NCBI GenBank assembly: GCA_000200715.1
Contig: DP000238.1
Coordinates: 894,593 to 926,592, forward strand
Length of the DNA stretch: 32,000 nt
DNA from: Cenarchaeum symbiosum A
Lineage (GTDB): Archaea; Thermoproteota; Nitrososphaeria; Nitrososphaerales; Nitrosopumilaceae
Direction of reading: 5' to 3'
This document shows positions 6,001 through 32,000 of the stretch, piece after piece. Every line of letters begins with the position of its first letter. Position 1 is the stretch's first letter. The notes under the pieces are model-generated. The model was given only the letters and a program-made list of their open reading frames with translations, searched no databases and had not been told where the DNA came from. Position numbers and translations under genes: made by a program.

Positions 6001-6259
6001 GGATGTACCAGAGGCGCCCGACGAGACACCAGGCCGCCCCGCGGACGGGATCCCAGAGCCCGGGGCGGGCACGCAGCCCGATACGCAGGCAGAGCAGGAC
6101 ATGCAGCCAGAACCGCAAGAGCCCGATATCCAAGAGGCCCCCGAGACAGGGCAGGAGACAGCAGCACCCGGGACAAGCCAGGAAGAGGCCCCGGAGCAGG
6201 GCGGCTTCTTTGACGGGATAATCAACTTCTTCAGGTCCCTCTTCGGCTTCGGGTCATAA
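2..6259 (+). CDS. Giant secreted beta-propeller repeat surface protein, 3' portion (5' end lies upstream of the window)
   Basis: The frame is open from nt 2. There is no stop upstream of the GTG at 35 used by the ORF track, and the upstream residues TLRSGDDVIRG continue the repeat pattern. Stop is TAA at 6257-6259. The translation holds 20 copies of a ~45-aa blade (consensus P.GvaFS.DG.rMFV.G...d.I.qY.L..PfD.s.A) in two runs of 10, at about nt 1830-3480 and 3860-5365. An Ig-like segment ends in YTSPRIHF (about 1545-1805). The N-terminal third has many N-x-S/T sequons. The C-terminus has a 13-Gly hinge, an acidic P/E/Q-rich stretch and a short hydrophobic end. Confidence 0.85.
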   Translation, partial: TLRSGDDVIRGVAVNADGSSMITIDAGDSPPEVDSVVRTNTYDMTTPHNLNTATFRLAEETVLDTNEGTGITFTPGDRRLFYTNGSNGIVSQLFEQQAYFVDIVPGVREPRNVTRNANDSAAVVDNSTARITNLKADARDNVTLSDTPVLEVRKNLILVDEFNPIEYQNSTGPPQITPPPAVNITNRPTNDGLNLSDSAMLAQARAGSSTPEPADRAAADHTVVSTGPTGPTVHVIVVNSTLVPEISANANNTAVSMGTNVTVIDNIEPVDEINPEDDVLPGQIVRDEEDIPGPTDGARLGITVSAVDAIEPGDMGELPVPGVNPLFPNDETMHTDSVLLGRSITIGDDFVASDGATIPGVGALTITISEGPTVSDMGAVPLPGGTAHNITDADMPTVSDMGAVPLPGGTAHNITDADTPTVSDMGTIPLSVNVHIIDHIDDILPTDNGTAVEPGQKLNATALDVINASDNATSPISGRGLLAVDRPALISDSTYIAFFFRDPGIPTSVIEVVGDRGILAITFEGVLNVSSIDTTKFNIRDGYAASGGATLPAAHTVSADLRTIIVELDSTILQTIRGYTSPRIHFDIGALTDPDGLPFPQAFDLPRPRHIASFPLFGIENDPEGIAFTPDGTRMFTSGGSGNLRQFELDPPFSIETIPGSSRSGNIRPPAAAGPNGETTGIYGQERDLAGLIFDPRGTRLYIAGDDTDTIRQYSLGTPYDIRGSITYEGLFDVGGEAPVPEAVRLGPGGINMYVAAAGTDASIYRYVLAEAFNVSTASYTGDSLSVLSNETRPTGVEISSDGYRLFIVGERAQDGPDSVFEYSMTRAFDITSAVYSGRFPSVAEATMRDLSFAGSTNMYIMGHLTRSVHHYDLAAPFEIVPPISAVLDVSANQTNPEGSAFSGDGRHIFLIGRDGPVGNIHRYPLSSPFDLATAGDPDQLFQTTPHELKPHDIVFSGDGLQMFVIGDSDNVTEFTLSAAYDIGSGSPPVHAASNTITFGGSTVDISAQDQTGLTFSSNGSRMYVTGNNLILQYLLDDPYDPSSASSEESFDLRLRSRPDGEYAEEEPAGVAFSTDGTRMFISGDRINAVHTYTLGTPFDVSSLVDDGHDGLFHVVDFSENPRGLEFSADGLRMVVAFANPDALVEYATATYPVVVTHRVPVLDVPVTDDTAMRDIFSRATIRDTITELENIINVTGGDQSEEFNATAVDTPVQTDFVMLNADLTGGDEVNNDLIGETVSLTSNINARDNPVLSDTSRPAMGHRLPAPESLRSFNASDQDSAPDGASVTGVAFSEDGTRMFVSGDGTDSIYQYDLSRNFEANSSSYSGVNASVGGQGTSPQAVAFSPNGSIMYVAQDQTGMDAIYQYALSAPFDLTSADVISPESLTLGENSSDPGGVDRITGFDISSDGLNLYVVEDRDARIRHYTLDPAFEISSASHVLTSDTLENEAGAAVQSITGIVFHPDGTGLSVSRLSGNVSTYDTGENFTVADLAHTAFYDTGLPGLSGLAFSPNGLLLAVTAGADVHQYRLMERYSTAGTSINSLVTEGEPIPTGVAFSFDGGRMFVAWDATERIQAYDLALPYRLDGAESAEFFNTTSGNPQDVEFSANGTMMFVVYGNATVYGYNLTARDMITPEGTPVTYGTIDEPSPRALAFSTEGSRMYIAGDGGKVFQYDLDSPYNIESVTKTGEWDVSSEDARPTGLSFSRDGATMLISGDDGDALYRYLLGTSFDVETAVYIGTSAVRAQTSTPTGVEYADDGASMFMTGTDEEGGRVFMFALQDRPVPHPPRNPSDAPEMGDSADADIPRTIDPGTGPTAPIRPRGGGGGGGGGGGGGTLSGGGLGYSASFSFEAGGVDMSRGSVRTSAGESLVVSPQLAPAGVLSVFDMEIVLTGPDGRAADIYYNRLGTFIGKTCDGESATLNVVYTCDESSIISGGATHIMTGGSLESIVIPLEDEFAGTMSIMLRDNQGIVLATHDRNRYSLVAGSAAPTLQVEPGTPDVPEAPDETPGRPADGIPEPGAGTQPDTQAEQDMQPEPQEPDIQEAPETGQETAAPGTSQEEAPEQGGFFDGIINFFRSLFGFGS
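1124..1291 (+). repeat. In-frame 72-bp (24-aa) tandem repeat: two full copies plus a decayed third
   Basis: The unit tccgacatgggcgcagtcccgcttcccggcggcacggcacacaacataacggacgccgaca(t/c)gcc(t/g)acagtc begins at 1124, 1196 and 1268. It encodes SDMGAVPLPGGTAHNITDAD(M/T)PTV within the giant CDS. Confidence 0.9.
5471..5509 (+). repeat. (GGN)13 coding microsatellite (13 consecutive glycines)
   Basis: ggt ggc ggc ggt ggc ggc ggc gga gga ggg ggc gga ggc is read in the frame of the giant CDS. It lies between the last propeller and the C-terminal domain. Confidence 0.9.
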
Positions 6260-12512: not shown

Positions 12513-12803
12513 CCGAAGAGCTGTGGCACGGCGCGATTTAACTTGTCCGTTCGGGGACTGTCAAGTCTGTGGACATGGGGCAAAAAGTGTCGAGCCCGGG
12601 ACATGGCAAATTTCTTTAAATATTGTCAGGCACAAAAATTATTCCATGCCCCCGCGGGTTAGCAGATTAGAGGCTGTGTCCCCACAATTTAACAGAATCG
12701 GTACTTTTACGGTATGAATACGGTATATATAGGATATCAGAACCATATTCGTCTATGCGAGGCGCATGTTAGCATATTTTATCGCCCGGGTTGGCTCGGA
12801 CTG

Positions 12804-14445: not shown

Positions 14446-14739
14446 CTGACAGGTATAATTTCCCAAGGGCTGATCCCGGCAATCCTGCGTCGATATACCT
14501 GGCAGGCAGGATAGATTGTGATAATTACCGCGGTTCCGTGTCATCACAGCACAACAGATACACCATGGCAGGGGGCCACGGATCAGGCTAGAATGGTAGA
14601 GAACATCATGCAGAAGATACTGATCAAGATGTTGGTCTACAACCGGTTTGTGCTCATGCGCACATGATGTATGAAGGAGATGACACTACACTGACCTTTT
14701 AGCCGAGTTATGGAACAATTTACTCGGTATTTGTAATTT

Positions 14740-17552: not shown

Positions 17553-18194
17553 CTAGGTAGTGTCGCTTTGAAGATCGAACGTGTACGTTACATCCACCGT
17601 GTCGCCGCTCGCCACCTGGGTGGAGCTGACCTTGACGGCAGAGAATGCTGTTCCTACGGTGTCACAGTTCAGGCCCGTGGCGTCCTCGGGAACAGGAGTA
17701 GTACCATCTGTGTTGCATATTACGATGGATTCAATCGTCGCCAAGCCGACAAGGTGTGTGCCGCCCGTGAACGTGGCCGTCAGGATTCCCTGGCCCTGGG
17801 TTTCGGTATTTACGTTGGCACCTATGCAGGTTGACTCCGAAGGGGTGGCAAACGCTGTAGCAGGAGTAAGTGCTGAATCAGAAACTGTCTCTGTGATCTC
17901 CGCTTCGAGTACATCAGTGATGCATATCACGCTAGGCCTCTGGTTGTTCTGGATAGAATCAAAGATGGCATCCCTCATTATATCCTCACCGGTGTTCAGG
18001 ACCGTGTTGTGAACCGTCTGTGTTGCCAGCGTCTGGCCGTCGGCGCTCTTGTGGACCAGTTCCGCCATGCCATAGTACTGGACGCCCTCAGGGGTGCCAG
18101 ACACGCCTGTCGGGGTCATCATCAGGGCAAATACCGCGGCAAAGCCGATGGCTGCTGCCTTGTACGTCGTCTTTCTGGTTGTCCTTGAAATCAT
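17553..18194 (-). CDS. Small secreted hypothetical protein
   Basis: Sec-type signal peptide (MISRTTRKTTYKAAAIGFAAVFALMMTPTGVSG). The mature part is T/S/V-rich with 4 Cys. GATTATAAAC (18217-18226, minus strand) is centred about 27 nt upstream of the ATG. Confidence 0.65.
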   Translation of the reverse strand: MISRTTRKTTYKAAAIGFAAVFALMMTPTGVSGTPEGVQYYGMAELVHKSADGQTLATQTVHNTVLNTGEDIMRDAIFDSIQNNQRPSVICITDVLEAEITETVSDSALTPATAFATPSESTCIGANVNTETQGQGILTATFTGGTHLVGLATIESIVICNTDGTTPVPEDATGLNCDTVGTAFSAVKVSSTQVASGDTVDVTYTFDLQSDTT

Positions 18195-18306: not shown

Positions 18307-21300
18307 ATGAACGCAGTAAGCACCGTAGTCATGGGAAGGATGTGGGCCCTGTTCATGCTGCCCGTGATCGCATCTATGATCGCATCTGTGATCGCCCCCG
18401 CATATGCCGACGCGGGGATCATCGGTGCTGCATACGAGCAGTCGACGGGCATCTTGGAGGTGTATTTTGACGGAATGGTAAACGCCTCCTCGATAGACCC
18501 GTCGGGGATTATCATCTGGGACAGCGCGGGCACATCGAGGACCGGCCTGTCAGAGTCCCAGCATCGGGGCCCCCCCGAGGGGCAGTCAGTGAGGCTGCAG
18601 CTCTCACTTGCCGAGAGGGCGGAGATATCAGGGTATGCATACCCGAGGGTGCACCTGACTGCTGCCGCATATTCTGGCGGGACACCCCCCCCGCCGTACG
18701 AGCTGCCGCGGACGGAATTTACGGGAACGCTCGACGTATCCACCTGGGATACAACTGTACGCGGCGTCACATTTTCTGACGACGGGCTCCAGGTGTTTAC
18801 GGTAAGCCACGGCGACACCATAGTCCGCTTTGTGCTCTCCGAGCCCTACGACATAAACACCGCGTCGCATGCGAGGACGTACGGCGGCAACATACAAGAC
18901 GAGGCGGGCAGCGGCATAAGGTTCTCGCCCGACGGGATGATCATGTTTTCATCCGACTGGGGCAAGGACGCCATCCACAGGTACGACCTAGTCTCGCCGT
19001 ACGAGCTCGACGGAAGGGTGCGCGGCGGCTCGTTCAATGTGAGGTCCCAGACCGGGACGCCCTTTGGCCTTGACTTTTCCGCAGACGGCAGCATCATGTT
19101 TGTGATCTCATCCAATCCGGGCACGCTCTTCCGGTACGACCTTGGAATCCCATACGACGTGAGGACAGCCGTGCTCGATAGCAGGCTCGACATATCGGGC
19201 GAGCTCACCGCCGGACACGGAGTAGACTTTGCCCCCGACGGCATGAGGTTTATAGCGGCGGGTTTTGAGTTTGAGGACGACGAAGCGCCCAGCACGGACA
19301 TAAACCAGTACGACATGTCAGAGCCGTACAACATAACGGGGGCGGTGCACTCGGGCGAGTACCTGCTGCCAGCTGCCCACGGCGGGTTTACCAACGATGT
19401 TGCGCTCTCAAAGGACGGCACGGTGCTCCTCCTGGCCGACCCCCAGTTCGACGCAATACAGCAGTTCGAGCTGGACGGGCCGTTTGACATACTGCCGTCT
19501 GCATTCTCCGGCGCGGCAGACGTCTCCGCGCAGGATGCAGCGCCCGCGGCCGTGCTGGTCAGCCCAGACGGCGCGGTCATGCTGGTCGCCGGCAATAACA
19601 CCGGCGCCATACACCTGTATGAACTGGCCGTGCCGTTTGACGTATCCACCGCGTCGCATACGTCAAGCATCGACGTCGGGGACAGGGTGGAGCACCCGTC
19701 GGCCCTGGCAGTCTCCAACAGCGGCCGGCGCGTTCTTGTGGCGGGGCCCGGCTCTGATGATATACACTGGTACGACAACACGAGCCCTGCCGGAAGATAC
19801 GAGCTGGCCGCGGCCGGGTATACAGGGGGAGCCGCCCTCCCTGCATATCCGGAGATAGCAGAGATAGCGGGCCTTACATTTGATGACAGCGGAAACTCTA
19901 TGTTCATACTTGCAGGGGGCGATGCCAACGCCAGGGACGGCGTCTACAAGTACAACCTGACTGCCCGGTTCGACCCGAGCACGGCATCATATGTCGGGGG
20001 CTTCAACCTTACATCCCTGAGGGAGCCAATGGAGAGGGAGCCCACAGGCATCGCCTTTACCAGCGGAGGCTCGGAGATGCTCATACTGGGAAGCGGGTCC
20101 GGCGCGATCCAGCGGCTTGCGCTAGATCCGCCGTTTTCCCTGTCTTCTCCACGGTACATCGGATACTATGATGTGGGGCGCGACGACTCATCTGCACAGG
20201 GGCTGGCGATGGCCCCGGACGGGGAGGCGGCATACGTGGCGGGAGCCAGCACGGGCAGGATAATCCAGTATAGTCCGGCTAGCGCCGATCTTCAGATATG
20301 CGGGACAGGGGAGGATGCAGCCGGCGGCATCTGCGTGCCTGCACTGAGGGCCCCCGGGATAACCTCCGCCCTGCTAGACTGGGACCGGGGTGCCGCCGAG
20401 GTGGCCTTTGATGCAAAGCTTGGCGAAATATCGCCCGGGAGCGTCAGGATAGCGGATGGCGCCTCCCTTGGCGGGGGCACGGACATTACAGATGGCGCAA
20501 CCACTGACGGCTCCACCGCGAGGTTCGTACTCGACGAGACAGGCAGGGCAGAGATATCAGGATACGCACAGCCCAGGCTCCACTTTACAGAGGGCGCCAT
20601 AAACCAGACGGATGGGCCTGCGTTTCCGCCCCAGCTTGGGCCGCCCATTATATCGTACAGGGGCCTTCTCAACATATCCGGGATACAGGAGGCCCCCTCG
20701 GCTGCCGCCATATCCATAGACGGGAGGAGCATGCTGGTATCCGGCGGAACGCCGGGCCTTGTGAGCCGCTTTGAGTTATCGGTCCCGTTTGATGTATCAA
20801 CTGCAGAGTTTGTGCCAGGCGGGTTTGCCGTGCCCGGGGGAGGGGGCCCGCCGGCGGGCCTGGCGCTATCCGGCGACGGCCTGCGCATGCTGGTCATGCG
20901 GCCCGGGGGAATGGTAAGCCAGTTTGATCTTGATTCGTCGTATGATCCGGCGGGGGCGTCATCTGCCGGGGGATACGACACGGGGATCTCCGGGGCAACA
21001 GGGATGGCGCTATCCCCCGGCGGCCGCGCCATGTACGTACTGGGTACCGACGGGGTGTCCAGGTTTGATCTTGCATCCCCCTTTGATGTAATAGGCGCAG
21101 CCGAGAGGCCGGGGCGGCTCCAGGTGGCGGATCTGGCGGAACCTGCAGGGCTTGCCGTCTCATCCGACGGCTCGGCCATTCTAGTCGGGGAGCTCCGGGG
21201 CCCGGGCATACACAGGTTTGCGCTAGAGGAGCCCTTTGAGCTTGCAGGCGCAGCCCAGGAAGGGGCGCTGTCCCTTGGAATACAGGGATCGGCATCCTCC

Positions 21301-24300
21301 TTTGCAATGGCCCCGGGAGGCATGCAGATGATAGTAACCGGCGCCGGGGGCGCGGTTCACATGTATGATATGCCCGAGCCGTTTGGGACGGGGCAGCCTG
21401 CGCACACGGGAACCCTGCTCATTTCAGGGCAGGACAACGTTCCCGTGGGTGCGGCCGTCTCTGGCGACGGGAGCATGCTGTTTGTCGCGGGCGACCAGAG
21501 GGATTTCATATACAGGTATGATCTTGCCGAGCCCTTTGATGTGGAGAGTGGTTCCCTGCACAGCAGCTTCGCCGTGGGGGACCAGGAGCGGCGCCCGACA
21601 GACGTGTCGTTCTCTGCCGACGGAACATCAATGTATGTGACGGGAAGCGGCATGGTGCACCAGTATGTACTGACAACCGGCTTTGACGTATCTTCTGCGT
21701 CATATCTGCGGTCCCTTGATGTATCCGCGCAGGACGGCGAGCCCACGGGCGTGCATATAGCGGCAGGCGGCTCACGCTTGTACATAACGGGGGACGCCTC
21801 GGATTCCGTGTATGGGTACGGCCTTACAGACGCCTTTGATATAAGCACGGCAGTGCATACAGGCTCGTTCAATATAGGGGCCTACGATGACTCCCCCCAC
21901 GCGGTCCGCGTATCTTCTGACGGCACAAGGATGATAGTAGCCGGCGGCCAGACTGGCGCCATTCACGTATACACCATGCCCGTCCCCTTTGAGATATATG
22001 CGGCGCACCACGAGGGCTTTTTCAACGTGCTTCCCCAGGAGGGAATACCGGCGGGCGTGGCCGTCTCGTCTGACGGCCTGCACATGTACGTTACGGGCCC
22101 GCTGTCGGATTCCATCCACCAGTACCACCTCGGGTCATACGATATACAGGCCTGCCCCGAGCCGCTGGGCGCGACGGGCGGCACATGCCTGCCGGGCTTT
22201 GCAGGGGTGATGGCAGTCTCCGCCGCGGCCGATACAGAACGGGGGATAATAGAGGCAATATTTGACGGGGCGATAGATGCATCGGCGGCAGACCCCTCAA
22301 GGATATACCTGAGGGACGGCGAGCTGCCCTCCGGCGGAATCCCGCTGGCAGGCTCCAGTGTTGAGACGTACGCGGATTCTGTCGTGCTGCGGCTGCAGTC
22401 AGATGGAATATCTGGCGCCTCTGAATATACGGATCCCCGCCTGCACTTTGGGGCGGGGGCGGTGCGCGGTGTAGACGGCAGCACGTACCCGCCCGCCTAC
22501 GAGCCATCCCGCATGGGATACGCGGGATCCTACGACTCAAGCCAGACAGAGGCGGCGCCTGCGGCAGTCGCGGCAAGCCCCGACGGCTCGAGGATATTCA
22601 TCCTGGGGACCGACGAAGACGCGATACTGCAGCTCGACCTGGCTGAACCGTACAATGTGACAGGCGGCAGCGTCACCACCTCCCACTATGTGGGGGTAGA
22701 AGAGACGGCCCCGTCGGGCCTCTCCTTTGGCGAGGACGGGATGTCGGCCTTTGTGACGGGCCGGTCGTCGGATGCTGTGCACAAGTACGAGCTGTTAGAG
22801 CCGTACGACGTGCAGGAGGTGCGAAACACAGTGTCGAGCTTTTCAGTTGCCGAACAGGAAGGCACCGTACAGGGCGTATACGTTACACCTGACGGGACGC
22901 ATGTATTCATAGTCGGCACCGACTCCGGCGCTGTGCACAGGTATACGCTTGGTGCGCCGTTTGATCCGGATGCTGCGGTACATTCGGGCTCGTTTAATGT
23001 AAGCGGGCAGGCAGGCAACCCCACGGACCTGTTCTTTGCGCCCGACGGGCACAGGATGTACGTTCTCAACAAGGGCGACGTGTCGGGGGAGGTGCACAGG
23101 TACCTGCTTGCCCGGCCGTTTGACATAACAGAGCCCGTGTATACGGGCAACTTTACCGTCGACGAGGATGCGGCGCCAAGGGGCGCGGCACTCTCGTCTG
23201 GCGGCCTGCACTTTTACATGGTGGGCACGGGATCTGATATGCTCCACCAGTATTCGCTGGGCACGCTGCAAGTAGACGTGTGCCCCGCGGGCCAGACGCC
23301 CGGCGACGGGTGCACTGCTGCATCGTCTGCCGCCGGCCCGCGCATAACATCCGCACTGCTCGAAGACGGCGGCACGTTGGAGATAATCCTTGACAGAGCT
23401 GCAGTGATAAACGCCTCAGGAATGCGCATAACCGACGGAGCCGCGTTCTCCGGCGGGATCTCACTGGCGGGCTCGAATGTATCGACGGACGGCTCCACCT
23501 CGAGATTTGAGCTGCCACCCGGGGCTGCAGAGGTGTTCGGGTATGCAGAGCCCAGGCTGCATTTGGAAGATGGCGCCGTGGCCGGCGGCACATATCCGCC
23601 GAGGGCGCCTCCGGGTACGGCGTATTCGGGGATGCTCGGCGTCACCCTGCAGGGCCCGTCTGCCGCGGCCCTATCTATAGACGGGACAAGGATGGTGCTG
23701 CTCGACGGCCCCGTGGACGTGCTCCACATGTATGGTTTAGGGGTCCCGCATGACGTATCGACTGCCTACCCCATGGATAGCACGCTAGACGTGACTGTTC
23801 CCACCCTGGGCGACGCGGATTCCATATCGATAGACGCGCAAGGCGTGCATTTTGCAGCCGGCGGCCTGCTCATGTACGTATCGGGATCCGGCGGAATATT
23901 CCAGTACAGGCTGGACGCCCCGCACGATGTGGCAGGCGCCGCCTATACGGGCAGGTTTGACGCCGGTGAAGTACCGGACGGGCGCCACGCAGTGCTCTCG
24001 CCTGACGGCTCCCGGATGTACGTTATAGGCCAGGGCGGCATATTCCAGTATTCACTGGGATCTCCCTTTGATGTATCAACTGCGATATACGATATATCGT
24101 ACGATACAGGGTTCGCCCCGGCGGGCGCGGACTTTTCTGAAGACGGCACGCGCATGGCGGCATCCGATGGAACAGGGATCCAGTGGTACGACCTTGCAGT
24201 GCCATTTGACATATCCACGGCGTCACCTGGCGGCGGATTTGATACAACAGGCGGGATTGGGGGCATAGAGATCTCGTCGGACGGCCGGCGCGTGCTTGCC

Positions 24301-27300
24301 GTGCTGCCAGGCTCCGCAGAGGTCATCCAGTACGACCTGCCTTCACCGTACAGGCCGGGGGGCTCCGCCCTTGCAGGATCCCTCGCGGTATCGGGGGTAG
24401 ACGACAGGCCAAAGGGCGTCACACTCTCGCCGGATGGGACAGTCATGTACATGACGGGGACAGAAGAGAGCGACGTCTACCAGTACGGGCTGTCCAGGCC
24501 CTTTGATGTGGATAGCGCCGTACTGCAGGCAACGCTGAACCTGCTCCCGGTGGACGGATACACCGCGCCCGACGATGTGGCCATCTCGCCCGACGGAAGC
24601 ACAATGTACATAGCCGAGGACGGGGGCAGGGTGCAGCAGTACAGCCTGCCAACACCCTTTGAGATAACGGGCGCCATGCGCGAGCATATAATGGATGCAA
24701 GCTCCATTGACAACAGCATCCAGGGAGTGGCCGTCTCGCCCGACGGCACAAGGCTGTTCATATCCGGGAATGAGACTGACTCCATACATGAATACAGCCT
24801 TACCACCCCGTTCATGCTGAGCAGCTCGATATACGACGGATCCCTGGGGCTGGCCGGCCACACCACAGACCCCTCGTCGGTGGCGTTCTCTGCAGACGGG
24901 ACTGTAATGGTAGTCGCAGGGCACGACGGCGGCCTTATCCACTGGTATGCGCTTGCAGCCCCGTTTGAGATCTCCTCTTCCATATACTCGGGGGCTCTTG
25001 TTACCATAACCGAGGATGCCGCCCCCCAGGGCGTTGCCCTCTCGTCTGACGGGCTGTGGACGTATGTAACAGGGGATTCCGGCAGCATCAGCCAGTATTC
25101 GCTGGCCTCGCGGCCAGTGGTGGAATGCCCGGCAGGAGCTGCAGCCTCCGGCGGCCAGTGCCTTCCGGGCTTTTCTATTCCAAGCCTCGTATCTGCAGCC
25201 ATGCAGACTACAGGGAACCGCCTCGAGATGCTCTTTGATGAAGAGATCGACGCCTCGACTGCCGACGCCGCCCAGATCAACATCAGGGACGGCGCGGGGG
25301 CGGCAGGCGGGATAAACCTTGACGGATCCCGCGTGAGGGACTCTGCGCCGGACGTGCTCAAGCTGTCCCTGACCAGGGGCGTTACGGATACTGTGTCCGG
25401 GTACGCGGATCCGCGGCTGCACTTTGGCGCGCGGACAGTGCATGGAGCAGACGGGTCCGTATTCCCCCCGAACTTTGATCCCGGCGGGCTGATGTTCATG
25501 GGCTCGCTTGACGTCTCCGCACAGGAGAGGCAGCCCAACGGGGCAAGGGCTGCCGCAGACGGCTCTAAAATCTACGTGGTGGGCGGCATCTCTGATTCTG
25601 TCCACCAGTACGACCTGGCTGCGCCGGGCAACCTGACTGGCGGATCCCACTCCGGCTCGCTGAATATTGGGGGCAGCAGCACAAACCCCACAGATGTCGA
25701 GCTCTCGCCAGACGGGGAGATGGCCTTTGTACTGACCAGGGCAGGAAACGTAAACAGGTACGACCTTGGCAGCCCCTTTGACATAGGGACCGCCGTGTCA
25801 CATTCCTCCTTGGTAGTGGGCGACAGAGTGCCGGCGCCCCTGGGGATGTCGTTCGGGGTGGGCGGCATGAGGATGTTCATCTCGGGCAATTCGCCAGATA
25901 TGATACACAGGTACGACCTGCCCGCGCCATACGAAGTATCTGCAGCTGTATACATAGATTCGCTGCACGTCGGCGATGATATCGCCGAGCCCGTGTCCAT
26001 AGCCTTCTCGGAAGACGGCTCAAGGCTGCTGGTAACCGATAGGATCCCGTCTTCTATACACACGTACCAGCTGGGCTCGCCATTCGACCTGACGCCGGCT
26101 GCTCTCACGGGATCGTTTGATGCAGACGGGCAGGACGGGTTTTTGCGCTCTGCATCATTTTCTGACGGCGGCCTGTGGATGTACCTGGCGTGGGCGGATG
26201 ACGGAACCATCCACCAGTACAGGGCGGAGCCCCCTGCGGTTGAAATCTGCCAGGGCACCATGCTGGCGACCGGCGGGGCCTGCATGGAAAGGTACGTTCC
26301 GGGGCCCTCCATACAATCCACCGCATTTGGCGGCAGCTCGCTGGAGATTGCATTTGATTCACCCATCAACCATTCATCTGTAGACACATCCAGGATCCGC
26401 GTTGCAGACGGGACAGAGGGCACAAGCCTGGCGGGGGCGGAGGTCTCGGAGGGGCCATCCCCCGGGGTGGTCGTGCTGGATCTTGGCCCCCGGGAGAGGG
26501 ACGCTATATCGGGATACAGAAACCCGGTCATTCACTTTGGCATAGGCGCCATACACGATATGGACGGGCGGCCGTACCCGCGCCCGTTCTCGACGGACCA
26601 GCCGGTCCCCCTGTCATCTGCAGAGGCCTCCCTGCGGAGAGTGCAAGATATCCACATGACGCCAGACGGCTTGTCGGTCTTTGTATCCGGGACAGAGTCC
26701 GGGGCCCAGTTTGGCGAAGGGCACGTGGTCCGGCGATACGACCTGTCCGAGCCCTACGACATGAGCACCGCCGTGGAGAATAGAACAGGCCAGTTTGAGT
26801 TTGTCGAAGACGAGCTGCAGGTCAACAGCCTTGCCTTCTCGGAGAACGGCCTGCGGATGTACGTCTCCGGGTCGCCAGACGAGCTGGACCCGGACCGTGG
26901 AGGGCTGTACCAGTACGATCTTAACGGGCCGTATCTTGCCCACACGGCCCTGCTTGCCGGCAGCACGCTCCCCACAGCCGGCGGGGAGACAAGATACCTC
27001 AGCGGGATCCACTTTAGAGAAGACGGCAGCAGCCTCTACGGGACAAGCGGCAGCGAGGTGCTCCAGTTTTCACTAGATACGCCCCATGACGTGACCACTA
27101 TGGGGCCCGCGCGCGCGGTGCTCATGATCGGCGGGGATCACGGTCTCGACGACGTGTCTATTTCCGAGGACGGGACAATCATGCACCTGACGGATTTGAA
27201 CACGATAAAGACCTACGAGCTGCGCAGCCCGTTCAACATCGGGAGCGCCTCAGCCATAGGGTCCGCTGTGCACCCGAGCACCGGCACGTGTTATGACAGC

Positions 27301-30300
27301 ATAGACTTTGCAGAGAGGGGATCGAGGGCCGTGGCCATGACCTGCACGGGCACAATGCATGAGCTCGACGTGCCCGTGCCGTACAATGCAGCCCTGCCCC
27401 CGCTGTCAGGCACCAAGGATCTGAACTTCTTTGCGGGATCCGAATCCCAGGGGCTCGCATTTAGCGATGACGGTACCATGATGTATATAATAACGTCAAA
27501 CGCCCCGGACGGCAACGATGGAATCCGCCAGTACCGGCTGGGGACTCCGTTTGAGCCCGGTACGTTAAATGCGGCAGGGATATTCGACGCGCTGATACAA
27601 GATACGCGCCCCCGCGGGATGGCGTTCTCGGCCGACGGCTCCATCATGCTCATGCTGGGCGAGCAGAGGGACAGGGTGTACCGGTACGACCTGGGCACGC
27701 CGTTTGACGTCACCACGGCAGTTTATGCAAACTCCAACTACAGCATACGCAGCACGGAGAACCAGCCCGTGGCCATGGATGTCGCGCTCGGCGGCACCCA
27801 GCTGTACGTGCTGGGCGGCGGCTCGAGCCCCAGCCTGCACCTGTTTGAGATGTCCGAGCCGTACGACCCGACTACAATGAGTCCGGCGGGCAGCACAGCA
27901 TACGACTACGACCAGAGGGTGCCCCTCAGGGGGGGCGACGGGGGAAGGCCAACTGGCGTCTTTGTGGCAGAGGACGGAGAAGACATCTTTGTATCGGGGG
28001 ACGAGCTCGATGCTGTAATCCACTTTATGGTGCCCGTGCCGTCGGATGTCACCACGATGGTGCCCGCAGGCGGGGTCTACGCGGGCACGGGCATAGTGTA
28101 CGTGGACGAGGATGACGCGCGCACAGCGGGCGTCTCGCTGTCGGAAGACGGCACAAGGCTGTTCGTCTTTGATAGATCCGACGGAATCAAGCAGTACCTG
28201 CTGAATACGCACCCGCTGCAAGTGTGCGAAGAGGGCATGATTCCGGAAGACGGCATCTGTGTGCCCGAGGCGGAGCCTGAGCTGCTCTCGGCCGTTCTCG
28301 ACATGGAGGGGAGGCTCGAGGTATTGTTTGATACGGAGATTGACGTCCCGGCAGGCATAGAGGGGGCGTATGTGAGCGGCGCAGGCATGTTCCAGCCGGG
28401 CGCCGACCTGTCGGGGGCGAGGGCCGAGGGCGGGGGCCCGCGCGTGCTGCGGCTGATTCTGGACCAAGACGAGCTGGATGCAGTGTATGCACTCGGGGAT
28501 TCGCCCCTACTCCACATTGGCGGGGCGGTAAACAGCACGGGTGGAGCGGCATTTCCCGATGTGTACTCGGCAGCCGCGCATGCGTTGCTCGGCTCTGCAC
28601 AGGCAATCCCGCCTGCCAGTCCCCCCGGAAACGACGCGCCAGGCGGGGCGGCAGTCTCACACGATGGCAGGTGGCTGTTTGTTTCCAGCAGGGGCGGCCC
28701 GGCCATAGACAGGTATGAGATGTCGGTGCCCTTTGACGTTGGCACCGCATCCCACGCAGATACGCTGGATATTGTCGGGTCCGACAGGAATCCCGAGGGC
28801 GTGGCAGTAGGGATGGACGGCTCGCGCCTGCTCGTTGTCGGCCACCAGAGGGACGCCATACGCATGTTCAGCATGACAGATTACGACCTGGGCACGGCGG
28901 CCCTCATCCAGTCGCTCAGTGTAAAAGAACAGGTGGATAACCCCTCGGGGATCTCCGTCTCGCCCGACGGCAGGGCGTTCTTTATAGTGGGATCCAACGG
29001 GGACACAGTCCACAGGTATGGAGCCATCGAGCCCTGGGACTTTGAGACTGCGGCACACGCAGAATCAATGAATACAAGCGACAGGACGAGCCTCCTGACG
29101 GGCGTATACGTTTCGCCCGACGGGCACAGCATGCTGCTATCTGACAGGGGCCACGACACGGTCCACGCATACCACCTGCCCGTCCCGTTCAGTTTGGCAG
29201 GCGCCGCATATACGGGGCAGATAGACCTCCAGGGGATAGGCAACAACATCCACGATGTGACGTTTGGCGCAGGCGGCCTGTACATGTACGTTGTAGACAG
29301 GCAGAGCGGCGCCGTATACCAGTACTCTGCAGGGGCTGCAGAACTTGTATTATGTGAAGAAGGCGAGAGTGCGGCGGCAGGCTCTTGCGCGCCTGCACGC
29401 CCTCCTACCACGCCCGCAATACTGAATGCGGTAATGGACGGGGACGGCGGGGCCCTCGAGGTCACATTCAACGGGACGGTGGATATAGAATCCGTCAGGG
29501 ATTCGGCGGTGCGCGTATCTGACGGCGGCTCGCCGGGGGGCCTTGGCGGCGGGCTGATGACGGTAGTCGATTCCAGCACCATCCGGTTCCAGATGGGCGG
29601 AAACGATGCGCGCGCCATATCACAGTATGTGGAACCGCGCCTGCTGCTAGAAGGAGCAGCCATGAACGTATCCGGAGTTATTGTGCCCGGGCCCTTTGAG
29701 CTGCCGCTGCCGCGCCGCGACTCCGGCACAACCATCGATGGGGCGGCAGGTGTGGCCCTCTCGTCTGACGGCCGCACGATGCTGGCCGCGGATACCCAGG
29801 GCGGCAGGATACTAGAATATACACTGCAGGATCCGCATAACGTGAGCACGGCAGTGCCGGAGGATATACTCGACGTCTCGGGCAGGGCCGCGCCCTCGGG
29901 GCTCGAGCTCTCTGCAGACGGGACTGTCCTGTTTGTATCGAATAGCGGCTCGGGGACCATAGACAGATACCTGCTGGATAATCCGTACAATGTGACATCC
30001 GCGGCATACGCGGACAGCGCAGAGTCCGGCAGTGGCGAGCCCGGCGGGATGATATTCTCTGCCGACGGGACCAGCATGTACCTGCTCGATGCAGATGATG
30101 GCGGCGTGCGCGAATATTCCATATCGCCCCCGTACGGCTTTGACTCTGTAAGCAGTGTAATGCTCCACGAAATAGAGGGCGCGGCCAACCTTACAGGCAT
30201 GACGTTCTCGCCAGACGGAACGGCCATCTTTATCTCGGGAGACGCAGGAATATTCCGGTACGAGCTGCCCGCAGAGTACTCGCCTGCCGGGGCGGTTCTG

Positions 30301-32000
30301 TCCGGCAGGTTTACGCCGGCGGCCCCCGCGGGTGCTCCCGCCGATATAGAGATCTCAGCCGACGGGCTGCACCTTGTTGTGGCAGGCGCAGACGGCTCCA
30401 TACACGGGTACGCGCTCGACAGACAGTCCGAGCTGGGGGCACGCGGCGTGCCCCGCGCGCTGAATCTCGGAGGGGGGTCGGTCCCCGCGGGCGTGGCGTT
30501 CTCTGGGAATGGCTCCATAGCATACGTGGCAGATTCCGGCAGCGGCGAGGTTCGCGCGTACGGCCTTGCCTCCCCGTACGACATACAGGGGGCCGCATCG
30601 ATCTTCAGCCTGAGCGTTCCTGCAGTGCCGGCAGGTGTCGCGCTATCGCCTGACGGCCAGAGGATGCTAGTGCCCGAGCCCGGCGGCATTCTTCAGTATG
30701 TGCTGGGCACGCCCTACGACCTGTCGTCTGCCGTGCTCGGGGTCAGTTTTGTCCCGGACGAGGAGCCGGATCCCCGCGGGGTCGCGTTTACACCCGACGG
30801 CCTGCGGATGTTTGTATCAGGGCCGGAATTCATCCACAGATACGGGCTTGCAGAGCCGTACAATGTAGACGACCCCGCATACGCGGGATCCGACGCGTCC
30901 CCCATTCCGTCAACCGAGGGGGTGGCGTTCTCTGATCACGGCTATAGGATGTTTGTCGCCGGCGGGGGCGCTGTCAGCGCCTACTCCCTGGATGATCCGT
31001 TTGCCCCGTCCACTGCCATCCACGACGGGTCGTTTGACCTCGGGGACGGGGCGGACCCGCGGGGCGTGGCATTCTCTGCGGACGGCAGCAGGATGTTCGT
31101 TCCCGGCGGCGGAAATGAATTCGTGCTACAATATGCAGTGGGAACGCACCGCATAGACGTGTGCCCCGACGGGATGTCGGTCTTTGAGGGCGGCTGCACG
31201 ATGACGGGGCCCGCGGGCGGGCCGCGCCTCGTATCTGCAGCCATGGACCCCCGCACCGGGGAGCTCGAGATGTTCTTTGATAGGGCAATGGACCCGGGCC
31301 TATCCACGGGGATTGTGCAGATACGGGACGGTGTATCGCCTGCCGGCGGAACCACTCTTGCGGGCAGCTTCTCGGCAGGGCCGCGGCCCGAGGTATTACG
31401 CATCACGCTTGAGAACGATTCCAGGGCAGAGGCTGCAGAATTTGCAGACCCCCGGCTGTACTTTGGAAATGATGCACTGCAGGGCTTGGACGGGGGGTTC
31501 TTCCCTGCCGCCTTTGACGCGCCGCGCACGGAATTCACGGGAGTGCTCGACGTCTCCACATGGGATACAACGGTACGCGGCGTCACATTTTCGCACGACG
31601 GGCTCCAGGTGTTCACGGTAAGCCACGGCGACACCATAGTCCGCTTTGTGCTCTCCGAGCCCTACGACATAAACACCGCGTCGCATGCGAGGACGTACGG
31701 CGGCAACATACAAGACGAGGCGGGCAGCGGCATAAGGTTCTCGTCTGACGGGATGATCATGTTCACATCCGACTGGGGCAAGGACGCCATCCACAGGTAC
31801 GACCTTGTCTCGCCATACGAGCTCGACGGAAGGGTGCGCGGCGGCTCGTTCAATGTGAGGTCCCAGACCGGGACGCCCTTTGGCCTTGACTTTTCCGCAG
31901 ACGGCAGCATCATGTTTGTGATCTCATCCAATCCGGGCACGCTCTTCCGGTACGACCTTGGAATTCCATACGACGTGAGGTCCGCCGTGCTCGATAGCAG
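18307..32000 (+). CDS. Giant secreted modular beta-propeller surface protein, 5' portion (>=4,564 codons, no stop within the window)
   Basis: This gene is not in the supplied track. Frame +1 was read codon by codon from 18301 to 31998. Stops occur at 18262 and 18292, the first ATG is at 18307 (a second is at 18331), and there is no stop afterwards. It has a signal peptide (MGRMWALFMLPVIASMIASVIAPAYA). It then has 8 complete modules, each an Ig-like domain ending in P-R-[LV]-H-[FL] followed by 10 or 5 blades of ~45 aa ([FVL]S.DG...[MLI][FYLV]V.G......I..Y.L..P[FY]D). The blade motif matches the giant CDS at 2..6259. Confidence 0.9.
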   Translation, partial: MNAVSTVVMGRMWALFMLPVIASMIASVIAPAYADAGIIGAAYEQSTGILEVYFDGMVNASSIDPSGIIIWDSAGTSRTGLSESQHRGPPEGQSVRLQLSLAERAEISGYAYPRVHLTAAAYSGGTPPPPYELPRTEFTGTLDVSTWDTTVRGVTFSDDGLQVFTVSHGDTIVRFVLSEPYDINTASHARTYGGNIQDEAGSGIRFSPDGMIMFSSDWGKDAIHRYDLVSPYELDGRVRGGSFNVRSQTGTPFGLDFSADGSIMFVISSNPGTLFRYDLGIPYDVRTAVLDSRLDISGELTAGHGVDFAPDGMRFIAAGFEFEDDEAPSTDINQYDMSEPYNITGAVHSGEYLLPAAHGGFTNDVALSKDGTVLLLADPQFDAIQQFELDGPFDILPSAFSGAADVSAQDAAPAAVLVSPDGAVMLVAGNNTGAIHLYELAVPFDVSTASHTSSIDVGDRVEHPSALAVSNSGRRVLVAGPGSDDIHWYDNTSPAGRYELAAAGYTGGAALPAYPEIAEIAGLTFDDSGNSMFILAGGDANARDGVYKYNLTARFDPSTASYVGGFNLTSLREPMEREPTGIAFTSGGSEMLILGSGSGAIQRLALDPPFSLSSPRYIGYYDVGRDDSSAQGLAMAPDGEAAYVAGASTGRIIQYSPASADLQICGTGEDAAGGICVPALRAPGITSALLDWDRGAAEVAFDAKLGEISPGSVRIADGASLGGGTDITDGATTDGSTARFVLDETGRAEISGYAQPRLHFTEGAINQTDGPAFPPQLGPPIISYRGLLNISGIQEAPSAAAISIDGRSMLVSGGTPGLVSRFELSVPFDVSTAEFVPGGFAVPGGGGPPAGLALSGDGLRMLVMRPGGMVSQFDLDSSYDPAGASSAGGYDTGISGATGMALSPGGRAMYVLGTDGVSRFDLASPFDVIGAAERPGRLQVADLAEPAGLAVSSDGSAILVGELRGPGIHRFALEEPFELAGAAQEGALSLGIQGSASSFAMAPGGMQMIVTGAGGAVHMYDMPEPFGTGQPAHTGTLLISGQDNVPVGAAVSGDGSMLFVAGDQRDFIYRYDLAEPFDVESGSLHSSFAVGDQERRPTDVSFSADGTSMYVTGSGMVHQYVLTTGFDVSSASYLRSLDVSAQDGEPTGVHIAAGGSRLYITGDASDSVYGYGLTDAFDISTAVHTGSFNIGAYDDSPHAVRVSSDGTRMIVAGGQTGAIHVYTMPVPFEIYAAHHEGFFNVLPQEGIPAGVAVSSDGLHMYVTGPLSDSIHQYHLGSYDIQACPEPLGATGGTCLPGFAGVMAVSAAADTERGIIEAIFDGAIDASAADPSRIYLRDGELPSGGIPLAGSSVETYADSVVLRLQSDGISGASEYTDPRLHFGAGAVRGVDGSTYPPAYEPSRMGYAGSYDSSQTEAAPAAVAASPDGSRIFILGTDEDAILQLDLAEPYNVTGGSVTTSHYVGVEETAPSGLSFGEDGMSAFVTGRSSDAVHKYELLEPYDVQEVRNTVSSFSVAEQEGTVQGVYVTPDGTHVFIVGTDSGAVHRYTLGAPFDPDAAVHSGSFNVSGQAGNPTDLFFAPDGHRMYVLNKGDVSGEVHRYLLARPFDITEPVYTGNFTVDEDAAPRGAALSSGGLHFYMVGTGSDMLHQYSLGTLQVDVCPAGQTPGDGCTAASSAAGPRITSALLEDGGTLEIILDRAAVINASGMRITDGAAFSGGISLAGSNVSTDGSTSRFELPPGAAEVFGYAEPRLHLEDGAVAGGTYPPRAPPGTAYSGMLGVTLQGPSAAALSIDGTRMVLLDGPVDVLHMYGLGVPHDVSTAYPMDSTLDVTVPTLGDADSISIDAQGVHFAAGGLLMYVSGSGGIFQYRLDAPHDVAGAAYTGRFDAGEVPDGRHAVLSPDGSRMYVIGQGGIFQYSLGSPFDVSTAIYDISYDTGFAPAGADFSEDGTRMAASDGTGIQWYDLAVPFDISTASPGGGFDTTGGIGGIEISSDGRRVLAVLPGSAEVIQYDLPSPYRPGGSALAGSLAVSGVDDRPKGVTLSPDGTVMYMTGTEESDVYQYGLSRPFDVDSAVLQATLNLLPVDGYTAPDDVAISPDGSTMYIAEDGGRVQQYSLPTPFEITGAMREHIMDASSIDNSIQGVAVSPDGTRLFISGNETDSIHEYSLTTPFMLSSSIYDGSLGLAGHTTDPSSVAFSADGTVMVVAGHDGGLIHWYALAAPFEISSSIYSGALVTITEDAAPQGVALSSDGLWTYVTGDSGSISQYSLASRPVVECPAGAAASGGQCLPGFSIPSLVSAAMQTTGNRLEMLFDEEIDASTADAAQINIRDGAGAAGGINLDGSRVRDSAPDVLKLSLTRGVTDTVSGYADPRLHFGARTVHGADGSVFPPNFDPGGLMFMGSLDVSAQERQPNGARAAADGSKIYVVGGISDSVHQYDLAAPGNLTGGSHSGSLNIGGSSTNPTDVELSPDGEMAFVLTRAGNVNRYDLGSPFDIGTAVSHSSLVVGDRVPAPLGMSFGVGGMRMFISGNSPDMIHRYDLPAPYEVSAAVYIDSLHVGDDIAEPVSIAFSEDGSRLLVTDRIPSSIHTYQLGSPFDLTPAALTGSFDADGQDGFLRSASFSDGGLWMYLAWADDGTIHQYRAEPPAVEICQGTMLATGGACMERYVPGPSIQSTAFGGSSLEIAFDSPINHSSVDTSRIRVADGTEGTSLAGAEVSEGPSPGVVVLDLGPRERDAISGYRNPVIHFGIGAIHDMDGRPYPRPFSTDQPVPLSSAEASLRRVQDIHMTPDGLSVFVSGTESGAQFGEGHVVRRYDLSEPYDMSTAVENRTGQFEFVEDELQVNSLAFSENGLRMYVSGSPDELDPDRGGLYQYDLNGPYLAHTALLAGSTLPTAGGETRYLSGIHFREDGSSLYGTSGSEVLQFSLDTPHDVTTMGPARAVLMIGGDHGLDDVSISEDGTIMHLTDLNTIKTYELRSPFNIGSASAIGSAVHPSTGTCYDSIDFAERGSRAVAMTCTGTMHELDVPVPYNAALPPLSGTKDLNFFAGSESQGLAFSDDGTMMYIITSNAPDGNDGIRQYRLGTPFEPGTLNAAGIFDALIQDTRPRGMAFSADGSIMLMLGEQRDRVYRYDLGTPFDVTTAVYANSNYSIRSTENQPVAMDVALGGTQLYVLGGGSSPSLHLFEMSEPYDPTTMSPAGSTAYDYDQRVPLRGGDGGRPTGVFVAEDGEDIFVSGDELDAVIHFMVPVPSDVTTMVPAGGVYAGTGIVYVDEDDARTAGVSLSEDGTRLFVFDRSDGIKQYLLNTHPLQVCEEGMIPEDGICVPEAEPELLSAVLDMEGRLEVLFDTEIDVPAGIEGAYVSGAGMFQPGADLSGARAEGGGPRVLRLILDQDELDAVYALGDSPLLHIGGAVNSTGGAAFPDVYSAAAHALLGSAQAIPPASPPGNDAPGGAAVSHDGRWLFVSSRGGPAIDRYEMSVPFDVGTASHADTLDIVGSDRNPEGVAVGMDGSRLLVVGHQRDAIRMFSMTDYDLGTAALIQSLSVKEQVDNPSGISVSPDGRAFFIVGSNGDTVHRYGAIEPWDFETAAHAESMNTSDRTSLLTGVYVSPDGHSMLLSDRGHDTVHAYHLPVPFSLAGAAYTGQIDLQGIGNNIHDVTFGAGGLYMYVVDRQSGAVYQYSAGAAELVLCEEGESAAAGSCAPARPPTTPAILNAVMDGDGGALEVTFNGTVDIESVRDSAVRVSDGGSPGGLGGGLMTVVDSSTIRFQMGGNDARAISQYVEPRLLLEGAAMNVSGVIVPGPFELPLPRRDSGTTIDGAAGVALSSDGRTMLAADTQGGRILEYTLQDPHNVSTAVPEDILDVSGRAAPSGLELSADGTVLFVSNSGSGTIDRYLLDNPYNVTSAAYADSAESGSGEPGGMIFSADGTSMYLLDADDGGVREYSISPPYGFDSVSSVMLHEIEGAANLTGMTFSPDGTAIFISGDAGIFRYELPAEYSPAGAVLSGRFTPAAPAGAPADIEISADGLHLVVAGADGSIHGYALDRQSELGARGVPRALNLGGGSVPAGVAFSGNGSIAYVADSGSGEVRAYGLASPYDIQGAASIFSLSVPAVPAGVALSPDGQRMLVPEPGGILQYVLGTPYDLSSAVLGVSFVPDEEPDPRGVAFTPDGLRMFVSGPEFIHRYGLAEPYNVDDPAYAGSDASPIPSTEGVAFSDHGYRMFVAGGGAVSAYSLDDPFAPSTAIHDGSFDLGDGADPRGVAFSADGSRMFVPGGGNEFVLQYAVGTHRIDVCPDGMSVFEGGCTMTGPAGGPRLVSAAMDPRTGELEMFFDRAMDPGLSTGIVQIRDGVSPAGGTTLAGSFSAGPRPEVLRITLENDSRAEAAEFADPRLYFGNDALQGLDGGFFPAAFDAPRTEFTGVLDVSTWDTTVRGVTFSHDGLQVFTVSHGDTIVRFVLSEPYDINTASHARTYGGNIQDEAGSGIRFSSDGMIMFTSDWGKDAIHRYDLVSPYELDGRVRGGSFNVRSQTGTPFGLDFSADGSIMFVISSNPGTLFRYDLGIPYDVRSAVLDS
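18705..19184 (+). repeat. Copy 1 of a 480-bp intragenic direct repeat (partner at 31521-32000)
   Basis: Manual alignment at an offset of exactly 12,816 nt (4,272 codons) gives about 19 mismatches in 480 nt, with perfect runs of more than 100 nt. Confidence 0.9.
31521..32000 (+). repeat. Copy 2 of the 480-bp intragenic direct repeat (partner at 18705-19184); runs off the window edge
   Basis: Same alignment as for copy 1. Similarity starts exactly at the codons for PRTEFTG.LDVSTWD, which is the junction between the Ig-like domain and the first blade. Confidence 0.9.

What the first reader, a model, noticed from the sequence alone, without database searches (positions are those of the whole stretch)
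31521..32000. 480-bp, ~96% identical in-frame copy of 18705-19184 lying exactly 12,816 bp downstream in the same gene
All other blades in the gene are similar only at the protein-motif level. These two stretches are near-identical at nucleotide level: about 19 mismatches in 480 by my manual alignment, with perfect runs longer than 100 nt. The offset is a multiple of three. Identity starts precisely at the Ig-domain/first-blade junction (PRTEFTG) and is still running at the window edge. The preceding Ig-like domains (18412-18704 and 31200-31520) are not alike. This pattern points to recent segmental duplication or gene conversion with a breakpoint at a module boundary. It implies the gene may contain a >12.8-kb higher-order repeat. 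It is also a classic site for assembly collapse or expansion, and for recombinational length variation of a surface protein.
Basis: seen in the sequence. Interest (0 to 1): 0.7.

Follow-up and report, generated by a model that had tools for sequence, protein, structure and literature searches.

The report
Near-identical duplicated segment in giant gene
A giant, secreted, many-propeller protein gene of a Cenarchaeum-like archaeon carries two 96%-identical 480-bp in-frame stretches 12.8 kb apart, best read as an older internal duplication kept alike by gene conversion, which is a familiar behaviour of repetitive surface-protein genes.

Summary
Positions 18705-19184 and 31521-32000 match at 461 of 480 bases, with no gaps. 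The offset is 12,816 bp (3 x 4,272). Both lie in one open frame (ATG 18307, still open at 32000). The 5' boundary is sharp, at PRTEFTG.

It is the only long nucleotide-level repeat in the gene. All other module pairs share 25-39% of amino acids and about 46% of nucleotides.

The gene encodes a signal peptide followed by repeated modules. Each module has a roughly 100-aa beta-sandwich linker, 5 or 10 propeller blades and a Cys loop. Its nearest relatives are the giant hypothetical proteins of Cenarchaeum symbiosum A.

The 19 differences are mostly synonymous (dN/dS 0.14). They are clustered: patches with dS of about 0.24-0.37 alternate with two tracts of zero divergence (129 and 149 nt). This points to a real, selected duplication (dS about 0.3) overlaid by recent short gene-conversion tracts. 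An assembly artefact is unlikely.

I could not test whether identity continues past 32000, that is, whether there is a 12.8-kb higher-order repeat. The source contig is in none of the collections I searched.

This is a new member of a known kind. Interest is modest.

The parts
18705..19184 (+). Copy A. It covers the lead strand (PRTEFTG...) plus blades 1-3 of the first propeller (module 1) of the giant gene.
   Evidence: Alignment; blade positions from a blade HMM built on the window's own blades.
31521..32000 (+). Copy B. It covers the same lead strand plus blades 1-3, now following the ninth linker domain. It runs to the window edge, so its true end is unknown.
   Evidence: Identity to copy A is 461/480 nt and 154/159 aa.
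18307..32000 (+). Giant open reading frame G, at least 4,564 aa and open at the 3' end of the window. It encodes a signal peptide followed by modules 1-8 and the start of module 9. Each module is a linker beta-sandwich, then 10, 10, 5, 10, 5, 10, 5 or 10 blades, then a C-x(9-11)-C loop.
   Evidence: Stop-free frame; translation; linker and Cys-loop motifs; blade HMM; AF2 model of module 1, all-beta, pLDDT 74.
18307..18408 (+). Predicted Sec-type signal peptide (MNAV...VIAPAYA|DAG).
   Evidence: Read from the translation: a hydrophobic core and an A-x-A site. This is by inspection; no predictor was run.
18412..18704 (+). Linker domain 1, a beta-sandwich, immediately upstream of copy A.
   Evidence: 27-33% aa identity to linker 9, and no nucleotide similarity.
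31222..31520 (+). Linker domain 9, immediately upstream of copy B. The joint at 31520|31521 is where similarity to copy A starts.
   Evidence: AF2 model with pLDDT 88. It is closest to linkers 5 and 3 (39% and 38%), both of which precede 5-blade propellers.
18799..18927 (+). First zero-divergence tract, 129 nt, matched by 31615-31743. Inferred to be a recent gene-conversion tract.
   Evidence: Run lengths; per-segment dS; clustering test.
19000..19148 (+). Second zero-divergence tract, 149 nt, matched by 31816-31964. Inferred to be a recent gene-conversion tract.
2..6259 (+). The C-terminal 2,085 aa of a second giant protein of the same family (ORF1). It provides context and is not part of the repeat pair.
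   Evidence: Its module is 61-65% identical to C. symbiosum CENSYa_0819 and CENSYa_0842.

Best explanation
The two stretches are real paralogous copies inside one giant gene. The gene encodes a secreted, modular, multi-beta-propeller protein in a Cenarchaeum-like (sponge-symbiont type) archaeon.

An illegitimate or unequal recombination event placed a copy of the start of propeller 1 directly behind linker domain 9. The joint is in frame and falls at a domain boundary. The event is old enough that unconverted patches now show a synonymous divergence of about 0.3.

Both copies have since stayed under purifying selection. Short-tract gene conversion between them has erased all differences in at least two tracts of about 130-150 nt. 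This is concerted evolution of a dispersed intragenic repeat.

Shown: the identity, the frame, the sharp boundary, the excess of synonymous changes and the mosaic divergence. Inferred: the order of events, the recombination mechanism, and the idea that the direct repeats could mediate an in-frame 12,816-bp deletion or duplication. Unknown: how far the copy extends beyond base 32000.
For: - **Identity:** 461 of 480 nt match, with no gaps and an in-frame offset.
- **Uniqueness:** it is the only long repeat found by self-blastn. Other modules share 25-39% of amino acids and a mean of 46% of nucleotides.
- **Selection:** 13 synonymous and 6 non-synonymous differences give dN/dS 0.14. The binomial p for an excess of synonymous changes is 5e-5.
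- **Clustering of differences:** the two longest perfect runs sum to 278 nt (permutation P = 1.5e-4).
- **Mosaic divergence:** dS per segment is 0.37, 0, 0.30, 0 and 0.24. The 5' edge compared with the rest gives Fisher p = 0.006.
- **Sharp boundary:** there is no nucleotide similarity upstream of the joint.
- **Open frame:** the frame is uninterrupted over 13.7 kb.
- **Family context:** 20 of 118 large relatives tabulated carry internal repeats of >=90% aa identity. C. symbiosum CENSYa_0917 and CENSYa_0849 carry internal module duplicates of 71% and 63%. C. symbiosum CENSYa_0842 and the homologue from a separate C. symbiosum record (O74056) share 70% identity over 1,289 aa and then differ in module content.
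Against: - Only 480 bp and 19 differences are visible, so the segment-wise dS values rest on small counts.
- No reads, no sequence beyond 32000 and no orthologue of this gene were available.
- Copy number, extent and polymorphism are therefore unverified.
- A mosaic of identical and diverged patches can also arise from recombination between strains.
- Gene conversion cannot have started between modules that were only about 46% identical, so a separate founding duplication has to be assumed.
Confidence: 0.8

Rival explanations
1. Large higher-order tandem duplication. The whole 12,816-bp unit, from propeller 1 through linker 9 (eight modules), was duplicated by one unequal crossover. Identity would then continue for about 12.8 kb past base 32000, and the gene would exceed about 26 kb (more than 8,700 aa). 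This is a variant of the best explanation that differs in extent.
For: A single crossover explains a single novel joint at 31520|31521. The offset then equals the unit length and is a whole number of modules. Identity is still 96% at the window edge. Blade counts run 10,10,5,10,5,10,5,10. Linker 9 is most like linkers 5 and 3, which precede 5-blade propellers. This suggests that a 10-blade-type propeller start is not linker 9's native partner (the statistics are weak and depend on the alignment).
Against: This cannot be tested here. Direct repeats of 12.8 kb at 90-96% identity would be very prone to deletion, yet the unconverted patches (dS about 0.3) indicate an old event. The closest relatives, the C. 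symbiosum giants, show no internal repeats above 71% aa identity. The largest family member in the top 150 is 6,246 aa.
Confidence: 0.25
2. Assembly artefact. Copy B would be a strain variant of copy A, or a mis-joined or looped contig end, and not a second genomic copy.
For: A 96% identity is typical of co-occurring strains. Repeats are classic mis-assembly sites. No reads were available, and the source contig could not be found.
Against: A graph mis-join needs a shared k-mer at the joint. Similarity starts abruptly, and the first 94 nt are the most diverged part, with 10 mismatches and no similarity upstream. The joint is in frame and falls exactly at a domain boundary, and the ORF stays open for 13.7 kb. 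The differences are biased towards synonymous changes, as expected for two functional sequences and not for errors.
Confidence: 0.07
3. A single recent event. One duplication or one conversion was followed by uniform divergence, with no ongoing gene conversion.
For: This is the simplest history. Overall dS of 0.12 and 96% identity are compatible with one event.
Against: The differences are strongly clustered. The two perfect runs sum to 278 of 480 nt (P = 1.5e-4). Per-segment dS alternates between 0.24-0.37 and 0.
Confidence: 0.1

Closest known systems
Giant hypothetical proteins of Cenarchaeum symbiosum A (CENSYa_0849, 0917, 0842, 0848, 0819, 0846) and the C. symbiosum record O74056
   Same: They share the building plan: signal peptide, a roughly 100-aa linker ending in ...SGYAxPRLHF..., ~50-aa blades (FSxDGxxMFV...Y.L..PFD.STA) and a Cys loop. 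ORF1 also shares their C-terminal Gly-run domain and FFRSLFG tail. These proteins are the best matches among 1.84 billion representatives. The ORF1 module is 61-65% identical to CENSYa_0819 and CENSYa_0842.
   Different: The modules of gene G are only 30-39% identical to any of them, so no orthologue of G is known. Their internal module duplicates are older, at no more than 71% aa identity, and lie adjacent. None shows a ~97% aa pair 4,272 residues apart. No function has been reported for them; the literature searches found nothing.
Concerted evolution and intragenic recombination of repeats in large bacterial surface proteins. Examples are the group B Streptococcus alpha C/Rib family, staphylococcal and enterococcal Bap/Esp, and the repeat arrays of LapA/SiiE-type adhesins. 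This rests on established knowledge recalled from memory and was not tested here.
   Same: Both involve in-frame repeats that are near-identical at the nucleotide level inside a secreted protein gene. Homogenisation is by recombination or conversion, and there is potential for in-frame length variation.
   Different: In those cases the repeats are usually many, tandem and adjacent. Here there is a single pair of copies separated by eight highly diverged modules. The repeated unit is part of a beta-propeller, not an Ig-like or Rib domain. Length polymorphism has not been shown here.
Lactonase/SGL/YVTN-type beta-propeller repeats (Pfam PF08450 SGL, PF10282 Lactonase)
   Same: Whole-protein scores exceed the Pfam cut-offs: SGL 40.1 against 26.3 bits, and Lactonase 27.3 against 21.7 bits. 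The AF2 model has four strands per blade. Foldseek matches multi-propeller proteins with E values down to 1e-19.
   Different: No single stretch passes on its own. All NCBIfam hits fall far below their cut-offs. Nothing indicates enzymatic activity. The arrangement of 5- and 10-blade units with linker domains and Cys loops is not described by these families.

Membership tests
C. symbiosum-type giant multi-propeller secreted proteins (uncharacterised) | An N-terminal signal peptide followed by a ~100-aa beta-sandwich linker with the ...GYAxPR(L/I)HF... motif | tested here: met
   The N-terminal 680 aa align end to end with CENSYa_0849 and CENSYa_0848 (19-681 to 14-652, and 19-676 to 13-655).
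C. symbiosum-type giant multi-propeller secreted proteins (uncharacterised) | Arrays of ~50-aa blades with the FSxDGxxMFV / Y.L..PFD.STA signature, closed by a C-x(9-11)-C loop | tested here: met
   The blade HMM finds 68 blades in G. There are eight Cys loops. The same motifs can be read in the P0002, P0004, P0011 and P0021 sequences.
C. symbiosum-type giant multi-propeller secreted proteins (uncharacterised) | A conserved C-terminal domain (Gly run, ...YNR(L/V)G.F...C...C..., and an FFRSLFG-like tail) | not testable with these tools
   The C-terminus of G lies beyond the window. ORF1 has this domain, at 40-52% identity to P0058, P0004 and P0011.
Intragenic repeats under concerted evolution (gene conversion) | Nucleotide identity far above that of the other paralogous units | tested here: met
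   96% against 40-54%.
Intragenic repeats under concerted evolution (gene conversion) | A mosaic of zero-divergence tracts within older divergence | tested here: met
   Per-segment dS is 0.37, 0, 0.30, 0 and 0.24. The run test gives P = 1.5e-4. The sample is small, at 19 differences.
Intragenic repeats under concerted evolution (gene conversion) | Copy-number or length polymorphism among strains | not testable with these tools
   No reads and no related genome carrying this gene were available.
Higher-order (multi-module) tandem repeat | Identity persists over the whole 12,816-bp unit | not testable with these tools
   Only the first 480 bp of the putative second unit lie within the window.
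Higher-order (multi-module) tandem repeat | The period equals a whole number of modules | tested here: met
   The offset of 12,816 bp spans propeller 1 through linker 9, which is eight modules.
   The AF2 model has pLDDT 88, with eight strands and one short helix. The best Foldseek E value is 0.011. The S-layer SbsC domain gives TM 0.52, and the EpoR and Fab hits have low probability.
Pfam SGL / Lactonase beta-propeller | A score above the curated gathering threshold | tested here: inconclusive
   Whole-protein scores pass (40.1 against 26.3, and 27.3 against 21.7), but no single domain stretch passes.

The most novel reading that the evidence does not exclude
Copies A and B are the first 480 bp of two 12.8-kb, eight-module higher-order units. 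The gene would then exceed about 26 kb. The direct repeats would act as a recombination switch, producing in-frame long and short variants of a host-facing surface protein in an archaeal sponge symbiont. That would be an archaeal counterpart of repeat-mediated surface-protein length variation in bacterial pathogens.
Probability: 0.15. Interest if true: 0.55.

Novelty: new member of a known kind. Interest (0 to 1): 0.3.

Why it matters
The pair marks a spot where a giant surface-protein gene of an uncultivated, Cenarchaeum-like archaeon has been rearranged module by module. The two copies appear to be still exchanging sequence.

In practice this flags two things. The locus needs long-read validation. 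Recombination between the copies would remove or add exactly eight modules (4,272 aa) in frame.

Biologically, it adds one dated example of modular evolution in a large and wholly uncharacterised family: dS of about 0.3 for the duplication and about 0 for the conversion tracts. The family has 904 representatives at E<=1e-30. It does not reveal a new mechanism.

Tried and rejected
**Finding the source contig, to read past base 32000.** All of these failed:
- Exact-protein look-ups of three neighbouring genes.
- Protein-guided scans of genome contigs and metagenome contigs.
- An exact 40-mer in genome contigs.
- A pattern degenerate at third codon positions, in metagenome contigs and viral contigs.
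- A protein search with linker 9 plus the blades (none at E<=1e-5).

**Whole-protein self-BLASTP.** It returned no off-diagonal hits for any protein. I treated this as a limitation of the method and replaced it with a windowed search.

**Literature.** Searches found no description of these proteins.

**Explanations rejected:**
- Chance or motif-level similarity. The background is 46% nt identity.
- Sequencing error. The differences show a synonymous bias.
- Gene conversion alone as the founding event. There is no flanking homology at the joint.

**Linker classes.** Linker 9 may belong to a '5-blade class' of linkers, but this is only suggestive. In pairwise alignments, its three closest linkers are exactly linkers 3, 5 and 7. 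In the MAFFT alignment, linker 7 drops to fifth place.


Full report
**Observation.** Aligning 18705-19184 with 31521-32000 gives 480 columns, no gaps and 19 mismatches, or 96.0% identity. The offset is 12,816 bp, which is 3 x 4,272. Both stretches lie in frame 1, which has no stop codon from 18295 to the window end. The longest perfect runs are 149 and 129 nt. Translated in the gene's frame, both copies start with PRTEFTG and differ at 5 of 159 residues.

Similarity ends abruptly upstream. Thirty-base windows to the left give 10-43% identity. The best local alignment of the 400 nt upstream scores 15, against 14.4 +/- 2.2 for shuffled sequence. A self-blastn of the window finds only this pair and a 94-nt tandem repeat in the other giant ORF.

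**The gene.** The frame starts at ATG 18307 with a hydrophobic leader ending in AYA|DAG. I judged this a signal peptide by inspection. The frame is still open at 32000, so the protein has at least 4,564 aa.

Motif searches and a blade HMM built from the window's own blades show a strict module plan. Each module has three parts:
- a roughly 100-aa linker ending in ...SGYAxPRLHF...;
- a run of ~50-aa blades (FSxDGxxMFV...Y.L..PFD.STA);
- a C-x(9-11)-C loop.

Blades per module run 10, 10, 5, 10, 5, 10, 5, 10. Module 9 follows, and only its linker and three blades fall inside the window.

An AlphaFold model of module 1, using the window's five other 10-blade modules as the alignment, is all-beta with four strands per blade (pLDDT 74). 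It matches multi-propeller proteins in the PDB with E values down to 1e-19. A model of the linker alone is a confident beta-sandwich (pLDDT 88) but has no significant structural match. The best E value is 0.011, and an S-layer SbsC domain gives TM 0.52. 'Ig-like' is therefore only a loose label. Pfam gives whole-protein scores above threshold for SGL and Lactonase propellers, but no single stretch passes. All NCBIfam hits are far below their cut-offs.

**What the repeat covers.** Both copies comprise the lead strand plus blades 1-3 of a propeller. Copy A follows linker 1 and copy B follows linker 9. The same 159-aa segment taken from every other module is 25-39% identical in all pairings, against 97% for modules 1 and 9. 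Codon-aligned nucleotide identity among the other modules averages 46% (range 40-54%), and third-position identity averages 36%. Linkers 1 and 9 are only 27-33% identical.

**The differences.** Of the 19 substitutions, 13 are synonymous and 6 are non-synonymous. This gives dS 0.123, dN 0.017 and dN/dS 0.14. The binomial p for an excess of synonymous changes is 5e-5. Both copies have therefore been evolving as coding sequence under purifying selection, which is not what errors or an inactive copy would show.

The substitutions are also clustered. The two longest perfect runs sum to 278 of 480 nt (permutation P = 1.5e-4). By segment, dS is:

| Segment | dS |
|---|---|
| 18706-18798 | 0.37 |
| 18799-18921 | 0 |
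| 18922-18999 | 0.30 |
| 19000-19143 | 0 |
| 19144-19182 | 0.24 |

The 5' edge compared with the rest gives Fisher p = 0.006.

Even the diverged patches are about 90% identical, far above the 46% paralogue background. The simplest history is a duplication old enough to reach a dS of about 0.3, followed by at least two recent short conversion tracts. Conversion alone could not have founded the pair, because there is no homology at or upstream of the joint. That last step is inference.

**Is it an artefact?** No reads were available. Three features of the sequence argue that the joint is real:
- A graph mis-join needs shared sequence across the joint. Here similarity starts abruptly, and the first 94 nt are the most diverged part.
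- The joint is in frame and at a domain boundary, and the ORF stays open for 13.7 kb.
- The differences show a synonymous bias.

I put the artefact reading at about 7%.

**Relatives.** A full HMMER scan of 1.84 billion representative proteins with module 1 found 904 proteins at E<=1e-30, many of them 3,000-6,200 aa long. The closest in architecture are giant hypothetical proteins of Cenarchaeum symbiosum A (CENSYa_0849, 0917, 0842, 0848, 0819, 0846) and the C. symbiosum record O74056.

The other giant ORF in the window (2-6259) has a module 61-65% identical to CENSYa_0819 and CENSYa_0842. Gene G's modules reach only 30-39% identity to anything, so no orthologue of G is available. The window therefore comes from a Cenarchaeum-like archaeon. 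This is inferred from these matches and from the archaeal-type neighbouring genes.

Among the 118 relatives tabulated in the windowed scan (the listed hits of at least 1,500 aa), 20 contain internal repeats of >=90% aa identity over 160 aa. These are usually many and adjacent. In the C. symbiosum group the best internal matches are 40-71%. CENSYa_0842 and O74056 share 70% identity over 1,289 aa and then differ in module content. Module duplication and reshuffling is thus a family habit. A single ~97% pair separated by eight diverged modules is unusual within the close subgroup, but it is not a new kind of event.

**Extent.** This is the main open point. The source contig is absent from every collection I could search, so I could not examine the sequence after base 32000. 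Two readings remain.

(a) *A propeller-sized or smaller copy.* I favour this, at roughly 0.6. Direct repeats of 12.8 kb at 90-96% identity should be lost quickly, whereas the unconverted patches indicate an old event.

(b) *A single unequal crossover that duplicated the whole 12,816-bp unit.* I put this at roughly 0.25. It needs only one novel joint. The blade pattern (10,5 alternation) predicts that module 9 was originally a 5-blade module. Linker 9 is most like linkers 5 and 3, which precede 5-blade propellers. So a 10-blade-type propeller start behind linker 9 looks like a non-native joint. That evidence is weak and depends on the alignment.

**Consequences (inferred).** The two copies are direct repeats with perfect runs of 129-149 nt, which is ample substrate for homologous recombination. 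A crossover between them would delete or duplicate exactly 12,816 bp, or 4,272 aa (eight modules), in frame. Whether such variants exist in the population is untested.

**Verdict.** The higher-order-repeat idea is undecided. The phenomenon, concerted evolution of in-frame repeats in a large secreted repeat protein, is well known from bacterial surface proteins; this is established knowledge recalled from memory and not tested here. I therefore class this as a new member of a known kind, with modest interest (0.3). The protein family itself remains uncharacterised in the literature I could search.

Noticed in passing
window 2-6259 (+): This is the C-terminal 2,085 aa of a second giant protein of the same family. 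Its linker plus 10-blade module is 61-65% identical to C. symbiosum CENSYa_0819 and CENSYa_0842. It ends with a run of 13 Gly, a Cys-containing domain and a hydrophobic tail (...FFDGIINFFRSLFGFGS). The tail is conserved in the C. symbiosum homologues and could be an anchoring or sorting signal.
   Followed up: partly
window 1114-1279: A 72-nt in-frame tandem repeat (2.3 copies, 94% matches) inside the first giant ORF. It encodes repeats of ...TVSDMGAVPLPGGTAHNITDAD... Apart from the reported pair, it is the only nucleotide-level repeat in the window.
   Followed up: partly
window 18412-31221: Blade numbers per module follow 10,10,5,10,5,10,5,10, and each propeller is closed by a C-x(9-11)-C loop. 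The regular 10/5 alternation suggests an older two-module super-unit. I could not determine whether 10 blades form one ring or two.
   Followed up: partly
window 12714-16324: A likely restriction-modification island. It holds two overlapping N6_N4 DNA methylase genes (12714-13676 and 13666-14445; Pfam E 3e-48 and 5e-60). On the minus strand there is a weak Tsp45I-like ORF (14740-15468) and a weak Eco57I-methylase-like ORF (15365-16324). GC falls to 36% at 15-16 kb, against about 60% elsewhere, which suggests horizontal acquisition.
   Followed up: partly
window 11442-11613: A 62-nt tandem repeat (2.8 copies, 86% matches) in the roughly 665-nt gap between the ArsR-type regulator gene (10504-11025, minus strand) and purC (11691-12512, minus strand). 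It has no Rfam match, and its function is unknown.
   Followed up: no
window 17553-18194 (-): A 213-aa ORF with an N-terminal hydrophobic segment and no Pfam match. It is transcribed divergently from the giant gene. No exact copy is in the public protein collection.
   Followed up: no
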